15,506 nt of DNA, from the IMG/VR virus record IMGVR_UViG_2700989487_000004; one strand, 5' to 3'. The notes beneath the pieces are model-generated. The model was not told where the DNA came from, searched no databases, and was given only the letters and a program-made list of their open reading frames with translations. Numbering within the stretch: the stretch's first letter is position 1; each line of letters opens with the position of its first letter. Shown in pieces: positions 2,615 through 7,921 of the stretch. The stretch is from a virus. Its lineage: Duplodnaviria; Heunggongvirae; Uroviricota; Caudoviricetes. The position numbers and the translations under genes were made by a program.

Positions 2615-2944
2615 CTATGCCACGACCTGTTCAAAATCTGCCGTTATGGTTACCCACAACGCCCCCACGCTTGCCGACCATTTACGACAAACCACCCTGA
2701 TCGGCTTCCAGTCATAAGGTGGCGTCCACTGAAATGCGCGGACGCCACCGTGCCGTTCCAGAAAGGCTTTTAAAGATGGGTGTTCACATTTACGAACACG
2801 TATCGTCACGCTGTAAATCGACAACTGGTTATTCAGTCCCGCCGCACGACGCTGTTCATAACCATCGCCCAGCTTCACTGTCACCACTTTCGGCTCTGAT
2901 ACCACATTCATATCCGGGCGCACTTTCCAGTGAAACGTCTCCAT
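2615..2944 (-). CDS. M: Minor tail protein M
   Basis: 109-aa ORF METFHWKVRPDMNVV...ADFEQVVA, same length and pattern as lambda gpM; its ATG overlaps the H stop (TAATG). Confidence 0.88.
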   Translation of the reverse strand: METFHWKVRPDMNVVSEPKVVTVKLGDGYEQRRAAGLNNQLSIYSVTIRVRKCEHPSLKAFLERHGGVRAFQWTPPYDWKPIRVVCRKWSASVGALWVTITADFEQVVA

Positions 2945-5900
2945 TACCGATATGCTCCACTTAACCGACCACCATCACGGGCCTGCTGTTGCATAAAATC
3001 CGCTGCCGCTTTTTTCCCAAGGTCATAAACCACCTTCAGGGCAGCCGGACCTATCTGCCCGTTCGTGCCATCGTTATTGATCTCGATGTTGTACTGCGGG
3101 GCAAACATCGCCATACCTGAACCACCAATATCCGCCACAACCCCCAGCTTACCGTCAGCACCACGACGCAGTGGCAGAATGGCTTCAGGTCCAGCTTCCC
3201 CCATCACACCCGCGCCTTTTGCAAAAGCAAAAAACGTCGGACGGTTAACCACCGTGCCACTGTAACGACTCAAATCAGCAGACTGATAAATCCCCCCATT
3301 GGCATTCAGGGAAAGGCTGCTGAGATCAAATCCCAGTACACTGCCAATCCCTTTTATCGATTTCATCATGGTTGCCTGCGCCAGGATTTTCGCCATATCT
3401 GACAGCACCGAAGAGGTGAAGGATTTGAAGTTGAGTTTGCCGGTAGTGACAAAAGTTGCCAGGCCATTTCCCATGTTGCTGAAGGCTGACGAGAACACCT
3501 GTTCTGCTGTTCCTGCCGTATTGTCTGCATCCACGGTAAAATCCTGAAATGCACGCAGGACTCCGTTTTTCCAGTTACCCTGCACAACTTCAAGCTGTTG
3601 CCAGTAACGGCGATTCTCATTCAGTTGTCGGTTCAGGCTCTCCGTCAGCGCCTGCTCGGCCTTTCTGTAGTCATCCGTGTTATATGTCCCTTTCTGCTCA
3701 CTATCCCGCCTCAACTGCTCCAGCTGTTGCTGGTTTTTCTGGCGAAGACTCAGTTGTACCTGATATCGCTGCCGCTGCTGATCACCCATACCCACCGTGG
3801 CGATATCCAGGTCATGTTGCTGACGCTGAGCGCGCTCTTCTTCAGCCAGTTGACTGGTCAGCTGAATTGTTTTTTTCTTCAGATCGTTGAGTGCCGTCTG
3901 TTTCTGAAGCTCCTGCTGTTTTACATCCAGCAGCATCAGTGCCTGAATCAGTTCATCTTTACGGGCCAGCACACTCTTTTCATCTGTCGTCAGTTTTTTC
4001 CCGTCCAGATCGCTGATGCGCTGCTGCAGAGCCAGAAGCTGTTTATGCGCTTCTGTCATCTTTTCAGTGGCAATGCCTGCTGACTGTCTTGCAGCAGCAA
4101 TCTGTCCTTCCACCTGTGCCTGTTGCTGACTGTACTGCAGCAATAACCGGGTGGCCTCATCATTACGGGTTTCGCGTGTTTTTTTCTTACCGGATGCCAG
4201 GGCTTTCTCGTAACGTTCATTTTCACGTTGTATCGCTGCATCCCTGACAGCCTGATCGGCGTACTGCATGGAATTAATACGCGCAATTTCACGCTGATGT
4301 CGTGCTGCTTCCGATTCATTCATCCGGTTCAGTGCAGCATTTTCAGCATTACGTCGTTTCTGTTGCTCCTGATAATTCCGCTCTGCCTGCTCTTTTGCAT
4401 CCTGCAAATCCTTCTGGCGTTTTTTCTCCTGAAGATCGTTAAGACGCTGCTGATCGTATTCAACCTGAGAAGATGATGCCGTCCAGGGGAGTCTTTTCGC
4501 CCGCGACACTTTCTCCTGTAAAGCGGCAATCTGTTCATCCAGCGAGTCTTCACGACCAATATTCATGGCCGCATCCCAGAAACGACTCCACAAATCAGAC
4601 AGATACTTCAGCGTACTGCCAAGCGCATTGAGGTTATTATCAATATCCGCAGTACGCCGACCGGTTTCCTCTGCCAGTGCAGACATGGCTATCCGTGCAG
4701 CATCACTGGACCGTCCCTGATCCCCAAGGACACGTATCTGCTCAAGCTGAGTGGCAGTAAGAAAATGCAGCTCATTGTCCAGAGCCTTCGCGGCATTTAC
4801 AGGATCATCCTTCAGCCGCTTAAACTGACTTATGGTATCGCTGACCGACTGGCCAACCGATCGCTCCATCTGTGCGGCAGCTCTCGCCACCATACCGATA
4901 TCGTTTCCACGAAATGCGCCACTCCCCACCACCTGAGCCAGCGCACCGGCTGCAGCATGTTGCGTGATACCATTCCCGGAAATAGCACGACTGAGCGTCC
5001 ACAGCTGCCCGGCAGTGACTCCGGCATAATGCCCCGTCAGCGACAACTGGCGGTTAAATTCTTCCCCCTCCTTCTGACCATCATACCAGGCTTTACCCAG
5101 ACCATAGACGGCCGCGGCAATACCGCCAATAACCCCGCCCAGCATCATGCCTTTCGGTGACATCAGTGTGTCTATCCATCCGGCACGGTTAGCCAGCGTT
5201 ATCCCGGATCCCCTCAGCGCACCTAAATTGCCGCGAACCAGTTCACCTATCAGAACGCCTATCTCCTGGCGGGCCGCTGCACTTTTCAGACCCAGCGAAT
5301 GCGTGGCTTTTCCTGCCTGCTCCATTTTGCGGATATACACTTCTGCAGCACTGCTTACCCCCAGCTGGGCAGCCTTAGCACGAAGCAACTCAGAAGAAGA
5401 AAGATTCTGGCGGGTTGCCTGCTCTTTAAGCTGACGGATAAACGCCACTTTCTGTCGGGTAGCCTCTGCCTCAGCCTGCGTAAGAACACGGGTTTTCGCC
5501 GTAACCTCAGAAATCAGCGCCAGATAATCCTGCTGACCAATCCCGCCACTGTTTCTAGCCTGTCGGATCTGCTGCTGAATACGCTGTAATTCCTGCAGCC
5601 CCGCACTGGCCTGTTTCACACTGTCAATCTGACGATAAAACGCGGCAGCCGCTTTATCCTGAGCCTCCGCCAGAGCCATGGCCTGCGCCTGTTCCTCGCG
5701 CATTTTCTGGCTCAGTGCCTCCATACGCTGGCGGGTTTGCTCCACCTCGCGGGCCATGCGTTCATGAGCCTGTGCGCTCTTCTCCACCGTCTGCGCATGG
5801 ACGGATGCGGCAGTTGCAGCCGAAGAAGCCGCCTGCATTGTCTGCCGGGCGGCCTGAGTCTGACGCTCCATAAAACGCTGCATACGGGCAGAAGACCGTT

Positions 5901-6009
5901 CTGCATCGCTGGCTGCACCATTCAGAAGGTTTTTGATACGGGGAATTTCATTTTTAAACTCTGCCGCATCAATCCCCAAATCAATGACCAGGTTGGCTAT
6001 CTGGTCCAT
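2944..6009 (-). CDS. H: Tail tape measure protein (gpH-like)
   Basis: ~1021-aa ORF, Ala/Gln/Glu/Arg-rich and coiled-coil-like, with a Gly-rich hydrophobic segment, directly downstream of G-T; start placed at ATG 6007-6009 (MDQIANLV) with GGAGG 8 nt upstream, rather than the track's 6039. Confidence 0.88.
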   Translation of the reverse strand: MDQIANLVIDLGIDAAEFKNEIPRIKNLLNGAASDAERSSARMQRFMERQTQAARQTMQAASSAATAASVHAQTVEKSAQAHERMAREVEQTRQRMEALSQKMREEQAQAMALAEAQDKAAAAFYRQIDSVKQASAGLQELQRIQQQIRQARNSGGIGQQDYLALISEVTAKTRVLTQAEAEATRQKVAFIRQLKEQATRQNLSSSELLRAKAAQLGVSSAAEVYIRKMEQAGKATHSLGLKSAAARQEIGVLIGELVRGNLGALRGSGITLANRAGWIDTLMSPKGMMLGGVIGGIAAAVYGLGKAWYDGQKEGEEFNRQLSLTGHYAGVTAGQLWTLSRAISGNGITQHAAAGALAQVVGSGAFRGNDIGMVARAAAQMERSVGQSVSDTISQFKRLKDDPVNAAKALDNELHFLTATQLEQIRVLGDQGRSSDAARIAMSALAEETGRRTADIDNNLNALGSTLKYLSDLWSRFWDAAMNIGREDSLDEQIAALQEKVSRAKRLPWTASSSQVEYDQQRLNDLQEKKRQKDLQDAKEQAERNYQEQQKRRNAENAALNRMNESEAARHQREIARINSMQYADQAVRDAAIQRENERYEKALASGKKKTRETRNDEATRLLLQYSQQQAQVEGQIAAARQSAGIATEKMTEAHKQLLALQQRISDLDGKKLTTDEKSVLARKDELIQALMLLDVKQQELQKQTALNDLKKKTIQLTSQLAEEERAQRQQHDLDIATVGMGDQQRQRYQVQLSLRQKNQQQLEQLRRDSEQKGTYNTDDYRKAEQALTESLNRQLNENRRYWQQLEVVQGNWKNGVLRAFQDFTVDADNTAGTAEQVFSSAFSNMGNGLATFVTTGKLNFKSFTSSVLSDMAKILAQATMMKSIKGIGSVLGFDLSSLSLNANGGIYQSADLSRYSGTVVNRPTFFAFAKGAGVMGEAGPEAILPLRRGADGKLGVVADIGGSGMAMFAPQYNIEINNDGTNGQIGPAALKVVYDLGKKAAADFMQQQARDGGRLSGAYR

Positions 6010-6310
6010 AACGCACACCTCCGGAAATACCTTCCCCAAGATGCATCAGTTCTTCGTCCGTTCGCTCCGGTATCCCGTTCTCTTCCGGTAAAAGGCTGAA
6101 ATCAGCCACCGCAGCATCACTGCTACCGGACACCATTCTCACGATCAATGCCTTCAGCGAGGCAAACTGCGCATCCATCCACACATCACTGAAGCTCTGC
6201 ATCCGGAAATAATCGCCCCACTCACCAAGCTCAGTGGCCGACATTTCCGACAGCATCCGCCGCCAGTCTGCCCGTCGGAACTCCCGGGCAAGCCGCATGA
6301 CAAACTGCAT
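5981..6310 (-). CDS. T: Tail assembly chaperone T segment, expected to be made only as a G-T fusion by -1 frameshifting near the end of G
   Basis: ORF in the -1 frame relative to G; that frame is open upstream to 6343 and so overlaps the last 8 codons of G; position between G and H as in lambda. Confidence 0.8.
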   Translation of the reverse strand: MQFVMRLAREFRRADWRRMLSEMSATELGEWGDYFRMQSFSDVWMDAQFASLKALIVRMVSGSSDAAVADFSLLPEENGIPERTDEELMHLGEGISGGVRYGPDSQPGH

Positions 6311-6318
6311 TTCCCGCG

Positions 6319-6705
6319 TCAGGACTTTTCCGGCGTCAGCGCCTCATGCTCATCATCCCCGGCATTATCAATGGTCCCCATACCGCTCAGCGACAGAACC
6401 ATCTCCGCCCCCGCACCCAGGGCATCATACGACCATGTTGTAATAACGGATGCGCAAAGCGTCTCTACATCCTTAGACTGATCCGCATTCCACAGTGAGC
6501 GGGAAACCAGCCAGGCATTGATATCCATCCCCATCCGCAGAAAAGCAATCTGTCGTTCAGCCTCCGGCAGTTCTCCCTCTTCGGCATCAAACTTTGCCGT
6601 TCGCTGCTGAACAAACGCCAGATATTCAATTCTCTGCAGCCCGGACAGCTCACTGAGCACCACGGACTGCTTTTCATAATTAAACGTGCCCTGTTTCAGA
6701 AACAT
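6319..6705 (-). CDS. G: Tail assembly chaperone G
   Basis: ORF MFLKQGTFNYEKQSVVLSELSGLQRIEYLA... ending ...TPEKS; start at ATG 6703-6705 (or 6706-6708) downstream of AGGTGGAG; the track's 6747 start is a TTG inside the upstream hairpin and was rejected. Confidence 0.85.
   Translation of the reverse strand: MFLKQGTFNYEKQSVVLSELSGLQRIEYLAFVQQRTAKFDAEEGELPEAERQIAFLRMGMDINAWLVSRSLWNADQSKDVETLCASVITTWSYDALGAGAEMVLSLSGMGTIDNAGDDEHEALTPEKS
6325..6331 (-). promoter_or_regulatory. Putative -1 programmed ribosomal frameshift slip site G-GAA-AAG joining the G and T frames
   Basis: Minus strand reads GCG CTG ACG CCG GAA AAG TCC TGA; the -1 frame is open only from 6343, so any shift into T must occur in this 25-nt window; the only A-rich slip candidate is GGAAAAG. 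Confidence 0.6.
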
Positions 6706-6721
6706 CATGTTCTCCACCTGC

Positions 6722-6745
6722 AAAAAAGCCCCGGATAATCGGGGC
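6722..6745 (-). terminator. Intrinsic terminator-like hairpin after V (GCCCCG-AUUAUC-CGGGGC + UUUUUUG)
   Basis: Perfect 6-bp GC stem followed by a U6 tract on the minus strand, 19 nt past the V stop and just before the G ribosome-binding site. Confidence 0.55.
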
Positions 6746-6765: not shown

Positions 6766-7509
6766 TTAACCTGCGGCGCTGACAGCCACCGTAGCCACTG
6801 CCACAAAATCGCCGTCAGAAGTCATGCCCACAATGCTGACACTGCCCTGCTTCACGCCTTTCACCGTGGCCACAAGCCCGTTCAGGGTCACCGTGGCAGT
6901 CTGTGGATCTGTCGAATGCACACTGATCGCTTTGTCACTGGCTCCGTCAGGTTTTACTGTAAAGGTCAGCGTGGTGGTTGCTCCCACTTTTACACTGGCA
7001 GATGCCGGTGCCACCGTCAGCCCGGTAACGCCCACGGTTTCAGTGCCTTCTTCTGCCAGATACGGACGCCCCACACCGCTGATTTTCACTGTGCGGGTCA
7101 TCACGTCTTTTGAGGCAATGGTTTTACCCAGTGAACTCAGCCAGCCACGGAAAACATCAACAGTACCGTTGGGATATTTGATACGAAACGCGCAGACTTC
7201 ACCGGAGTCGAACAACTGAACCAGTTTTTTCTGCCCGCTGTCACCCGGACGCCAGGCCAGCGTCGCCGAAGTATCACCGACGGATTTCTGCCCCTGGGTT
7301 GTCGTTTTCCAGTCTGCATCTTCATCATCGAGATAAGTGTCATCTTCTGCATCAGCGGTCATTTCGCCAGGTTGCAGATCCTTCACCATCGCAAGACGCA
7401 GCCAGTCAGTGTCCGACAAAGGGTTCGCAAACGCATCGCCGTTGCCGGTATACATCCAGAACGTCGTCCCCGCACCTTTCGTCTTTGCCAGTGGATTTGG
7501 TGTGGTCAT
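6766..7509 (-). CDS. V: Major tail protein V with C-terminal Ig-like (Big_2-type) domain
   Basis: ORF MTTPNPLAKTKGAGTTFWMYTGNGDAFANPLSD... resembling lambda gpV; ATG 7507-7509 preceded by AAGGAGGTGG; Thr/Val-rich C-terminal region typical of an Ig-like domain. Confidence 0.9.
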   Translation of the reverse strand: MTTPNPLAKTKGAGTTFWMYTGNGDAFANPLSDTDWLRLAMVKDLQPGEMTADAEDDTYLDDEDADWKTTTQGQKSVGDTSATLAWRPGDSGQKKLVQLFDSGEVCAFRIKYPNGTVDVFRGWLSSLGKTIASKDVMTRTVKISGVGRPYLAEEGTETVGVTGLTVAPASASVKVGATTTLTFTVKPDGASDKAISVHSTDPQTATVTLNGLVATVKGVKQGSVSIVGMTSDGDFVAVATVAVSAAG

Positions 7510-7519
7510 TACCACCTCC

Positions 7520-7921
7520 TTAATTCGTGTACGTGATCTGGTACGTGATTTCCGCCATCGCCCAGGTGGCCATCTCATTATCACGTTGATAGTTAAAACC
7601 GAGTGGGATCAGGATGTCGATGAGTCCGGAAAGTGCCGGTACATCATTCAGGGCAGGGAAAATGGTGCTCTCCATCCACATATCCAGCTCTGAATCCGGT
7701 GCCTGTGCCCGGATGAAGACGGCAATATGCAGAACAGCCTGCCAGTCATCTTCATCCGTCATTTTTCCGGTGTACTGAGCATCACTCAGCCACACCGCCA
7801 CGGCAGGCAGTTCCTGCGCATCAATAAATGCCGGAAGCCCGTCAAAAAACGTGGCGCTGTCTCCACACTGTTCCCGAAGGCGTGCCAGTACGGCCTGGCG
7901 GATTTGTGTATGTCGGTTCAT
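7520..7921 (-). CDS. U: Tail terminator protein U
   Basis: ORF MNRHTQIRQAVLARL...ITYQITYTN resembling lambda gpU; start at ATG 7919-7921 overlapping the Z stop (ATGA); an alternative ATG at 7933 (MADPMNRH) is possible. Confidence 0.85.
   Translation of the reverse strand: MNRHTQIRQAVLARLREQCGDSATFFDGLPAFIDAQELPAVAVWLSDAQYTGKMTDEDDWQAVLHIAVFIRAQAPDSELDMWMESTIFPALNDVPALSGLIDILIPLGFNYQRDNEMATWAMAEITYQITYTN

What the first reader, a model, noticed from the sequence alone, without database searches (positions are those of the whole stretch)
6319..6343. G-T frameshift window contains a non-canonical slip heptamer (GGAAAAG rather than lambda's GGGAAAG)
T lies in the -1 frame relative to G and that frame is open only from 6343, so the shift must occur within the last 8 codons of G. 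The only slippery candidate there is G-GAA-AAG. The A-site A-AAG allows tRNA-Lys to slip, but the P-site codon GAA is not the GGA of the lambda site as I recall it. This predicts either reduced or mechanistically different frameshifting, and hence an altered G:GT ratio.
Basis: partly seen in the sequence, partly recalled or inferred. Interest (0 to 1): 0.55.

Follow-up and report, generated by a model that had tools for sequence, protein, structure and literature searches.

The report
Phage G-T frameshift site GGAAAAG
This is the ordinary tail-chaperone frameshift site of a lambda-like E. coli prophage; its GGAAAAG slip sequence differs from lambda's GGGAAAG, but it is the commonest version among the relatives sampled and is already annotated in phages N15 and phi80.

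Summary
The genes lie on the minus strand. G (PF06894) runs 6705-6319. The T frame (PF06223) is -1 relative to G and is open only from 6343. The seven sense codons of overlap (GCG CTG ACG CCG GAA AAG TCC) hold one shift-prone site, G GAA AAG, at 6331-6325. Lambda has G GGA AAG at the same place.

It is not a read error. All 80 close relatives have it. 574 complete E. coli genome records match the 69-nt junction exactly, and none matches a GGGAAAG version.

It is also not an oddity. 21 of 32 diverged G/T lineages from Enterobacterales use GGAAAAG. The GenBank records of N15 and phi80 mark this heptamer as the -1 slippery sequence. Lambda's GGGAAAG is the minority form in this sample.

Conservation of the T frame starts exactly at the heptamer, with no conserved start codon, so T is made as a 241-aa G-T fusion. 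I found no conserved downstream RNA structure. An upstream GAGG is inconclusive.

In vitro work (Peng 2019) calls G GAA AAG less slippery than G GGA AAG. A lower or differently achieved G:GT ratio is therefore plausible but untested.

Verdict: real, ordinary, already known.

The parts
6319..6705 (-). Gene G, tail assembly chaperone, 128 aa, including the stop TGA at 6321-6319. An alternative ATG lies at 6708.
   Evidence: Pfam PF06894, E=6e-40. Translation. GGAG Shine-Dalgarno sequence a few nt upstream of ATG 6705. RefSeq annotates the same 128-aa gpG.
6325..6331 (-). Slip heptamer G GAA AAG. Zero-frame codons are GAA and AAG; -1-frame codons are GGA and AAA.
   Evidence: Sequence. Conserved in 80/80 close relatives and in 21/32 diverged lineages. 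The identical heptamer is annotated as the slippery sequence in N15 and phi80.
6322..6343 (-). The only stretch where both frames are open, between the -1-frame stop TGA (6346-6344) and the G stop TGA (6321-6319). The shift must occur here.
   Evidence: Three-frame translation.
6324..6324 (-). U immediately 3' of the heptamer, a context reported to favour shifting at X XXA AAG sites.
   Evidence: Sequence. The 3' base is a pyrimidine in 32/32 lineages: 22 T and 10 C. The context effect (U > C > A > G; Bertrand et al. 2002, RNA 8:16) is recalled from my own knowledge and was not read here. Selection on the Val/Ala/Ile codon of the -1 frame confounds this pattern.
5981..6325 (-). T part of the fusion: 114 codons in the -1 frame from GUC (6325-6323) to the stop at 5983-5981. 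Base 6325 is read twice.
   Evidence: Pfam PF06223, E=5e-15. The frame is conserved gap-free from the heptamer onward in 32 lineages, as GK[VAI]xxxExxFxxxLAREFxRxDWRxML. The predicted fusion is 241 aa with junction ...ALTPEK|VLTREMQF....
6308..6310 (-). In-frame ATG used by RefSeq, mEp460 and cdtI to annotate a stand-alone 109-aa T. It is probably not a real start.
   Evidence: The best Shine-Dalgarno-like hexamer, CGGGAA, abuts the ATG with 0-1 nt spacing. The homologous codon is CTG, ATT, CGT or CAT in most other lineages. The first in-frame ATG falls at codon 7, 11, 17, 25 or 53, inside the conserved domain.
6342..6345 (-). Shine-Dalgarno-like GAGG, 10 nt upstream of the heptamer. A possible dnaX-type stimulator; status inconclusive.
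   Evidence: 17/32 lineages have an anti-Shine-Dalgarno duplex of -4 kcal/mol or stronger at offsets -19..-14, against 11.0 +/- 2.3 after synonymous-codon randomisation (P about 0.014, window chosen post hoc). Neighbouring control windows score 11-15/32.
2944..6009 (-). Gene H, the tape measure (1021 aa). Its start overlaps the end of T, as in lambda.
   Evidence: Pfam TMP_2, TMP_4 and Tape_meas_lam_C. GGAGG Shine-Dalgarno sequence upstream of ATG 6009.
6766..7584 (-). Gene V, the major tail tube protein with a C-terminal Big_2 domain. It is the upstream neighbour that fixes the V-G-T-H synteny.
   Evidence: Pfam Phage_TTP_12 and Big_2.

Best explanation
This is the programmed -1 ribosomal frameshift site of a lambda-type tail assembly chaperone pair.

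Most ribosomes translate G to its stop and make the 128-aa chaperone gpG. A small fraction, after decoding GAA (Glu) and AAG (Lys) in the G frame, slip one base back on G GAA AAG (6331-6325). They then continue with GUC in the T frame. The product is a 241-aa gpGT fusion with junction ...ALTPEK|VLTREMQF.... By analogy with lambda, its G part binds the tape measure gpH and its T part recruits the tail tube protein gpV.

The slip is driven mainly by the single E. coli tRNA-Lys (anticodon mnm5s2UUU), which moves from AAG to the better-matched AAA. The P-site tRNA-Glu (mnm5s2UUC) re-pairs from GAA to GGA. It keeps the first and third base pairs and replaces the middle A-U with a G.U wobble.

The site therefore works like lambda's G GGA AAG with a slightly weaker P-site re-pairing. 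No downstream RNA structure is involved. The U 3' of the heptamer, and possibly an upstream GAGG, may help.

Shown: the frame arrangement, the heptamer, its conservation, the absence of an independent T start, and the absence of a conserved structure.
Inferred: the slip itself, the tRNA re-pairing geometry and the efficiency.
For: (1) Gene order is V-G-T-H with the Pfam families of lambda G, T and H.
(2) The overlap of open frames is 7 sense codons and contains a single A_AAG.
(3) The G tails upstream of the site are hypervariable in sequence and length. NNG GAA AAG is kept in lineages from Escherichia, Salmonella, Citrobacter, Enterobacter, Kosakonia, Erwinia, Serratia, Xenorhabdus, Proteus, Providencia and Symbiopectobacterium.
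(4) G at heptamer position 1 is kept although the codon it ends varies: GCG 11, CCG 10, CTG 8. G at position 2 is kept although the zero-frame amino acid varies (Glu, Gly, Ala). The constraint is therefore on nucleotides, as expected if the P-site tRNA re-pairs.
(5) T-frame conservation begins at the heptamer, at a fixed 13-codon distance from the LAREF motif. The first ATG lies inside the conserved domain.
(6) ATG 6310 has no usable Shine-Dalgarno sequence.
(7) The same heptamer is annotated as the -1 slippery sequence in N15 and phi80, and phi80 has a joined gpG-T CDS.
(8) On an NJ tree of the fusion proteins, GGAAAAG and GGGAAAG interchange: GGGAAAG appears in three separate places. This implies functional equivalence.
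(9) E. coli ribosomes do shift on G GAA AAG in vitro, though less than on G GGA AAG (Peng 2019, PMC6924986).
Against: No GT fusion protein has been observed for this module in anything I could read. The predicted 241-aa product is absent from the 15-billion-protein collection.

In a reconstituted system G GAA AAG gave 'mainly the 0-frame product' with wild-type EF-G. In vivo, A_AAG without a slippery P-site codon and without a stimulator is at background: 0.147% against 0.112% (Sharma 2014, PMC4066793).

I found no stimulator that would compensate:
- The downstream fold has z = +0.45 and +0.06.
- RNAalifold over 31 lineages gives -1.2 kcal/mol with no covariation.
- There is no Rfam hit.

Sister lineages with G GCA AAA and A GAA AAG have even poorer P-site re-pairing. 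That weakens the argument that P-site pairing matters.
Confidence: 0.8

Rival explanations
1. The product is the same, but the mechanism is a single-tRNA slip. Only tRNA-Lys slips on A_AAG, in the A site or later in the P site while UCC or the nearby stop is being read. tRNA-Glu does not re-pair in any meaningful way. This is the IS3-type tetramer mechanism without its pseudoknot.
For: Related lineages keep only the A_AAR part with a poorly re-pairing P-site codon: G GCA AAA in five sampled genomes (L096, L097, L238, L245, L260) and A GAA AAG in Morganella. A zero-frame stop lies 0-1 codons after the heptamer in many lineages, which would fit a slip during a slow A-site event. [quoted passage not shown]
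Against: A_AAG alone is at background in vivo without a strong pseudoknot, and no such structure exists here. Positions 1 and 2 of the heptamer are G in 30 of 32 lineages, despite different zero-frame codons and amino acids. A pure A-site model does not predict this. The next codon is not conserved (UCC, CCC, UAG, UAU, UCU, UCG), so there is no shared 'hungry' codon.
Confidence: 0.15
2. T is made on its own from ATG 6310, as RefSeq, mEp460 and cdtI annotate it (109 aa). This would happen by termination at the G stop and re-initiation 8 nt downstream, and no frameshift would be needed.
For: ATG 6310 lies 8 nt after TGA 6321-6319. The stand-alone 109-aa T is the annotation on at least 1000 contigs. 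The same GGGAAATG arrangement is present in one other lineage (Edwardsiella, L250).
Against: There is no Shine-Dalgarno sequence at a usable spacing. The homologous codon is not a start codon in most lineages, and the first ATG often lies after the conserved LAREF...DWR motif. The residues between the heptamer and ATG 6310 (VLTRE) align with lambda, phi80 and N15 T sequence. In lambda, T is known only as the GT fusion (Levin et al. 1993, as summarised in PMC5009743).
Confidence: 0.04
3. The heptamer is a sequencing error or a decaying prophage allele of lambda's GGGAAAG, or the fusion arises by RNA polymerase slippage on the A run.
For: None beyond the single-base difference from lambda. Deletion-derived G-T fusions (P0027, P0046) show that some copies of the module are decaying.
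Against: The heptamer is identical in 80/80 IMG/VR relatives, in isolated phages (cdtI, mEp460, Ayreon, Tritos) and in 574 exact 69-nt matches in complete genomes. There are zero exact matches to the GGGAAAG version. A run of four A is far shorter than the runs of roughly 7-9 or more A or T that give appreciable transcriptional slippage in E. coli (my own knowledge).
Confidence: 0.01

Closest known systems
Phage lambda G / G-T programmed -1 frameshift (Levin, Hendrix & Casjens 1993; Xu, Hendrix & Duda 2004, 2013, 2014)
   Same: Same gene order V-G-T-H. Same Pfam families (PF06894, PF06223). T is in the -1 frame. The slip site sits at the same aligned position, 13 codons before LAREx. The A-site A_AAG is the same and is followed by U. 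No downstream structure is found.
   Different: The P-site codon is GAA (Glu), not GGA (Gly). After the slip the middle base pair is U.G rather than C-G. The G stop is 1 codon after the site rather than 5. G is only 31% identical to lambda G.
Phage N15 gene 14/15 and phage phi80 gene 14/G-T
   Same: The heptamer GGAAAAG is identical and lies at the homologous position. Both GenBank/RefSeq records annotate it as 'slippery sequence for -1 translational frameshift'. N15 also has a hairpin terminator between the V and G homologues.
   Different: The flanks differ: GCG GAA AAG CCC ... five more codons, against CCG GAA AAG TCC TGA here. G and T belong to another sub-lineage on the NJ tree. In the window's own clade (cdtI, mEp460, RefSeq E. 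coli) the frameshift is not annotated.
E. coli dnaX A AAA AAG frameshift (upstream Shine-Dalgarno sequence plus downstream stem-loop)
   Same: tRNA-Lys slips from AAG to AAA. A Shine-Dalgarno-like GAGG lies 10 nt upstream here, which is the spacing of the dnaX stimulator.
   Different: No downstream stem-loop is found. The upstream element is not clearly above the background of the acidic G tail. The expected efficiency is a few percent or less, not about 50-80%.
IS3-type A_AAG tetramer frameshift
   Same: An A_AAG preceded by a P-site codon that is not of the XXY form.
   Different: IS3 depends on a strong downstream pseudoknot (Sharma 2014), and none is present here. In addition, the P-site codon here can still re-pair through a G.U wobble.

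Membership tests
Lambda-type G/GT tail assembly chaperone frameshift | Two overlapping ORFs lie between the major tail protein gene and the tape measure gene. | tested here: met
   V 7584-6766, G 6705-6319, T frame 6343-5981 and H 6009-2944, all on the minus strand.
Lambda-type G/GT tail assembly chaperone frameshift | The upstream ORF is homologous to gpG and the downstream ORF to gpT. | tested here: met
   PF06894 E=6e-40 and PF06223 E=5e-15. The T frame aligns without gaps with lambda T from the slip site onward.
Lambda-type G/GT tail assembly chaperone frameshift | The downstream ORF is in the -1 frame and has no start of its own. | tested here: met
   The -1 frame is shown. There is no conserved start codon and no usable Shine-Dalgarno sequence. 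Independent initiation in vivo cannot be excluded by sequence alone.
Lambda-type G/GT tail assembly chaperone frameshift | A canonical X XXY YYZ slippery heptamer lies in the overlap. | tested here: not met
   The site is G GAA AAG. The A-site half (A AAG) is canonical. The P-site half (G GAA) is not, and re-pairing needs a middle-position G.U. The same non-canonical heptamer is accepted as the slip site in the N15 and phi80 records. The family evidently does not require this feature strictly.
Lambda-type G/GT tail assembly chaperone frameshift | A GT fusion is made at a few percent of G and is required for tail assembly. | not testable with these tools
   This needs a reporter assay, mass spectrometry or genetics. 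No fusion protein for this module is on record.
dnaX-type stimulated -1 frameshift | A Shine-Dalgarno-like element lies about 10-14 nt 5' of the heptamer. | tested here: inconclusive
   GAGG at 6345-6342 is 10 nt upstream. The enrichment is 17/32 against 11.0 +/- 2.3 (P about 0.014, post hoc), but control windows score 11-15/32.
dnaX-type stimulated -1 frameshift | A stable stem-loop or pseudoknot lies 5-9 nt 3' of the heptamer. | tested here: not met
   The fold z-scores are +0.45 (100 nt) and +0.06 (60 nt). The consensus fold of 31 lineages is -1.2 kcal/mol with 0 covarying pairs. There is no Rfam match.
IS3-type A_AAG tetramer frameshift | An A_AAG tetramer depends on a strong downstream pseudoknot. 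| tested here: not met
   A_AAG is present, but no downstream structure is found.

The most novel reading that the evidence does not exclude
G GAA AAG, which in vitro work uses as the poorly slippery control, is the commonest natural slip site among the sampled lambda-type tail chaperone genes of Enterobacterales and may be the ancestral one. Lambda's textbook G GGA AAG is a minority form in that sample and may be derived. If so, one of two things follows. Either a middle-position U.G pair in the P site is well tolerated in vivo, so the 'X XXY YYZ' rule is too strict for bacterial A_AAG sites. Or these phages run on a markedly lower GT:G ratio, or use an unrecognised stimulator such as the upstream GAGG and the 3' pyrimidine. 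The sister variants G GCA AAA and A GAA AAG would extend this to almost no P-site re-pairing.
Probability: 0.3. Interest if true: 0.45.

Novelty: already known. Interest (0 to 1): 0.27.

Why it matters
For biology it matters little. The G-T frameshift is a textbook case, and this heptamer variant has been annotated in the N15 and phi80 records.

Two practical points remain.

First, the module sits in about a third of complete E. coli genomes (1845 of 5426). There, and in the mEp460, cdtI and Fels-1 records I examined, T is annotated as a stand-alone 109-aa protein. The predicted 241-aa GT fusion is in no database that I could query. This is a systematic annotation gap.

Second, the family offers a natural series of slip sites (GGGAAAG, GGAAAAG, GGCAAAA, AGAAAAG, AAAAAAG) at one fixed position. 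All have to deliver a workable G:GT ratio. That makes it a convenient in vivo test bed for how much P-site re-pairing a bacterial -1 frameshift really needs.

Tried and rejected
- Downstream stimulatory structure. I folded 60 and 100 nt after the heptamer (z = +0.06 and +0.45). I ran RNAalifold on 31 diverged lineages (-1.2 kcal/mol, no covariation). I scanned Rfam at E <= 1 (only a spurious lncRNA hit). Rejected.
- Upstream Shine-Dalgarno-like stimulator. The raw enrichment looked strong against a 7.9% per-window background. It shrank to 17 against 11 +/- 2.3 once amino-acid sequence was held fixed, and control windows were nearly as rich. Left as inconclusive.
- Natural in-frame G-T fusions as evidence for the junction. 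P0027 and P0046 turned out to be internal deletions, not frameshift alleles. Uninformative.
- Exact look-up of the predicted GT fusion. Not in the collection.
- Literature. Xu et al. 2004 (Mol Cell) and Xu et al. 2013 (JMB) are not held. Searches for GGAAAAG with 'phage', 'slippery' or 'frameshifting' gave only Peng 2019. The figure in the PRFect paper that defines its 'twofour' motif is not held, so I cannot say that motif equals GGAAAAG.
- Census bias. The genome-wide scan used peptide patterns fitted to window-like G proteins. The '21 of 32 lineages' figure therefore over-represents this side of the family. I partly corrected this by sampling named phages.

Full report
**What is in the window.**
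The finding lies in the tail-assembly part of a lambda-like prophage, and all its genes are on the minus strand. Pfam identifies the following genes:
- terminase large subunit (14977-12875) and portal (12738-11158);
- a ClpP-protease/capsid fusion ORF (11405-9186) and a cement protein;
- Z, U and V (7584-6766, with a Big_2 domain);
- G (6705-6319; PF06894, E=6e-40);
- a -1-frame ORF with PF06223 'minor tail protein T' (E=5e-15);
- the tape measure H (6009-2944), then M and L.

The 821-nt G-T region is 97-99.5% identical to phages cdtI, mEp460, Tritos and Ayreon. It is 100% identical to prophages of E. coli O145 strains. The module occurs at 95% identity or more in 1845 of 5426 complete E. coli genomes.

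**Checking the observation.**
G ends ...GAG GCG CTG ACG CCG GAA AAG TCC TGA, with the stop at 6321-6319. The -1 frame carries a TGA at 6346-6344. It is then open from 6343 to 5981. Only seven sense codons lie between the two stops.

These codons hold one zero-frame Z_ZZN tetramer, A_AAG. They hold no canonical X_XXY_YYZ heptamer. The candidate is G GAA AAG at 6331-6325, followed by U.

Lambda (J02459) has GCG GGA AAG TGT TCG ACG GTG AGC TGA at the homologous place.

The A at heptamer position 3 is not an error:
- All 80 IMG/VR relatives have it.
- A 69-nt junction query matches 574 complete-genome records exactly.
- The same query with GGGAAAG matches none at 99% or above.

**Is it peculiar to this window? 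No.**
G homologues down to 56% identity all end in [TS]-P-E-K-[SPF]. The roughly 20 residues before that are hypervariable.

I collected DNA for 262 loci from IMG/VR and from one genome per GTDB species. For each I extracted the stretch where both frames are open. Among 32 lineages with clearly different flanks the counts are:

| Heptamer | Lineages |
|---|---|
| GGAAAAG | 21 |
| GGGAAAG | 4 |
| GGCAAAA | 4 |
| GGGAAAA | 1 |
| AGAAAAG | 1 |
| AAAAAAG | 1 |

GGAAAAG occurs with quite different neighbours:
- CCG GAA AAG TCC TGA (E. coli and Salmonella);
- GCG GAA AAG CCC TTG CCA GCG AGC TGA (Enterobacter, Citrobacter, phi80);
- CTG GAA AAG TAG (Proteus, Providencia);
- GCG GAA AAG TCT TAG (Erwinia, Serratia).

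Named phages sort as follows:
- GGAAAAG: phi80, N15, HK225, mEp237, mEp043, Fels-1, Klebsiella Kp4865-4, Providencia PSTCR8lys, mEp460 and cdtI.
- GGGAAAG: lambda, 434, PhiR57_1, PhiR12_5 and one Stx2a phage.
- AAAAAAG: two Stx phages.

On an NJ tree of the predicted fusion proteins, GGAAAAG is spread over the whole tree. GGGAAAG appears at three separate tips (no bootstrap). The two forms differ by one transition and evidently interchange.

One caveat applies. The genome scan used peptide patterns fitted to window-like G proteins, so the proportions are biased towards this side of the family.

**Already recognised.**
The N15 RefSeq record marks GGAAAAG (10027-10033) as 'slippery sequence for -1 translational frameshift'. 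The phi80 record FN582354 does the same and carries a joined gpG-T CDS.

In contrast, RefSeq E. coli, mEp460, cdtI and Fels-1 annotate T as a separate ORF that starts at an internal ATG. The predicted 241-aa fusion is absent from the 15-billion-protein collection, whereas the 109-aa T is on at least 1000 contigs.

**Is T made by frameshifting?**
Translating the -1 frame from the heptamer gives GK[VAI]xxxExxFxxxLAREFxRxDWRxML in all 32 lineages. There is not a single gap between the heptamer and the LAREF motif.

The first in-frame ATG falls at codon 7, 11, 17, 25 or 53, which is inside or even after the conserved block. In this window the ATG at 6310 has only a CGGGAA that abuts it, with 0-1 nt spacing. 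G and H, by contrast, have GGAG and GGAGG at normal spacing.

Heptamer position 1 is G although it closes different codons (GCG 11, CCG 10, CTG 8). Position 2 is G although the zero-frame residue is Glu, Gly or Ala. The -1-frame GGN codon is never decoded if the shift occurs on the Lys codon. These constraints therefore act on the RNA, as expected for a slip site where the P-site tRNA re-pairs.

**Mechanism.**
The following is established knowledge, supported by PMC5009743 and PMC4066793. E. coli has one tRNA-Lys (mnm5s2UUU). It pairs weakly with AAG and better with AAA, which makes X XXA AAG the best bacterial -1 sites.

In this window the A-site half is canonical. The P-site tRNA-Glu (mnm5s2UUC, from my own knowledge) would move from GAA to GGA. 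That keeps C36-G and U34-A and replaces the middle U-A with U.G.

Three papers bear on how well this should work:
- Peng et al. 2019 used exactly AUG GAA AAG as the 'unfavourable' control. With wild-type EF-G it gave mainly the 0-frame product. It did shift with EF-G tip mutants, less than G GGA AAG.
- Sharma et al. 2014 found A_AAG alone at background without a pseudoknot. The best V_VVA_AAG heptamers gave about 0.3% without stimulators, and up to about 3.7% with a favourable 3' context.
- Bock et al. 2019 showed that a single P-site G.U mismatch in dnaX still allows substantial shifting. They did not measure the middle position.

**Search for compensating stimulators.**
- No stable or conserved downstream structure is present, and there is no Rfam hit.
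- The base 3' of the heptamer is a pyrimidine in 32 of 32 lineages and is U here. As I recall Bertrand et al. 2002, this is the favourable context, but the Val/Ala codon of the T frame confounds the pattern.
- A GAGG lies 10 nt upstream, which is the dnaX spacing. Shine-Dalgarno-like pairing at that offset is found in 17 of 32 lineages, against 11.0 +/- 2.3 under synonymous randomisation. Neighbouring windows of the acidic G tail are almost as rich. I treat this as inconclusive.

**Conclusion.**
The feature is real and correctly located. It is the -1 frameshift site that yields a gpGT fusion (predicted 241 aa, junction ALTPEK|VLTREMQF).

It is non-canonical by the X XXY YYZ rule. It is nevertheless the commonest form among the G/T lineages sampled and has been annotated in N15 and phi80. 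It is therefore already known rather than new.

Whether it gives a lower G:GT ratio than lambda's site is a reasonable but untested inference from in vitro data. The more divergent sister sites, G GCA AAA and A GAA AAG, are the more surprising members of the series.

Noticed in passing
window 6728-6745 (minus strand), between V and G: A G+C-rich hairpin, GCCCCGATTATCCGGGGC, followed by TTTTTT, lies about 15 nt before the G ribosome-binding site. It looks like an intrinsic terminator that would lower G/T/H transcription relative to V. The homologous hairpin is annotated as a terminator in mEp460 and N15.
   Followed up: partly
loci L096, L097, L238, L245, L260 (GGCAAAA) and L240 (Morganella, AGAAAAG): At the same fixed position, sister lineages use G GCA AAA UAG or A GAA AAG UAA. 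There the P-site tRNA (Ala or Glu) could keep at most one or two base pairs after a -1 slip. These are less canonical than the window's site, and most have the stop codon directly after the heptamer.
   Followed up: partly
window 5981-6310 (minus strand) and public annotation: T is annotated as a stand-alone 109-aa protein in RefSeq E. coli and on at least 1000 contigs. The predicted 241-aa G-T fusion is absent from the 15-billion-protein collection. This is a systematic annotation gap for a module present in about a third of complete E. coli genomes.
   Followed up: yes
window 9186-11405 (minus strand): One long ORF combines a ClpP-type protease domain (residues 95-255) with a major capsid domain (441-736). 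As listed, its 5' end overlaps the portal ORF (11158-12738) by about 250 nt, so the real start is probably further downstream.
   Followed up: no
window 6342-6345 (minus strand) and homologous positions in other loci: Shine-Dalgarno-like GAGG, GGAG or AGGA motifs sit about 10 nt upstream of the heptamer in about half of the diverged lineages. They are often built from a GAG codon where GAA is used elsewhere in the same acidic tail (for example L086: GAA GAA GAA GGT GCG GAG GCT). This is suggestive of a dnaX-like stimulator, but it is not clearly above the local background.
   Followed up: partly
proteins P0027 and P0046 (homologues of window G): Two database proteins carry both the G and T domains in one frame. 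They arise from internal deletions that remove the G tail and the slip site, so they are decayed prophage alleles rather than frameshift products.
   Followed up: yes
loci L223 and L228; phage record MW057783: Contigs labelled 'Bacillota bacterium MAG' and 'Proteobacteria bacterium MAG' carry a G gene 91-95% identical to this E. coli prophage. A record named 'Campylobacter phage CJLB-4' has a lambda-type G at lambda-like coordinates. These look like binning or contamination problems.
   Followed up: no
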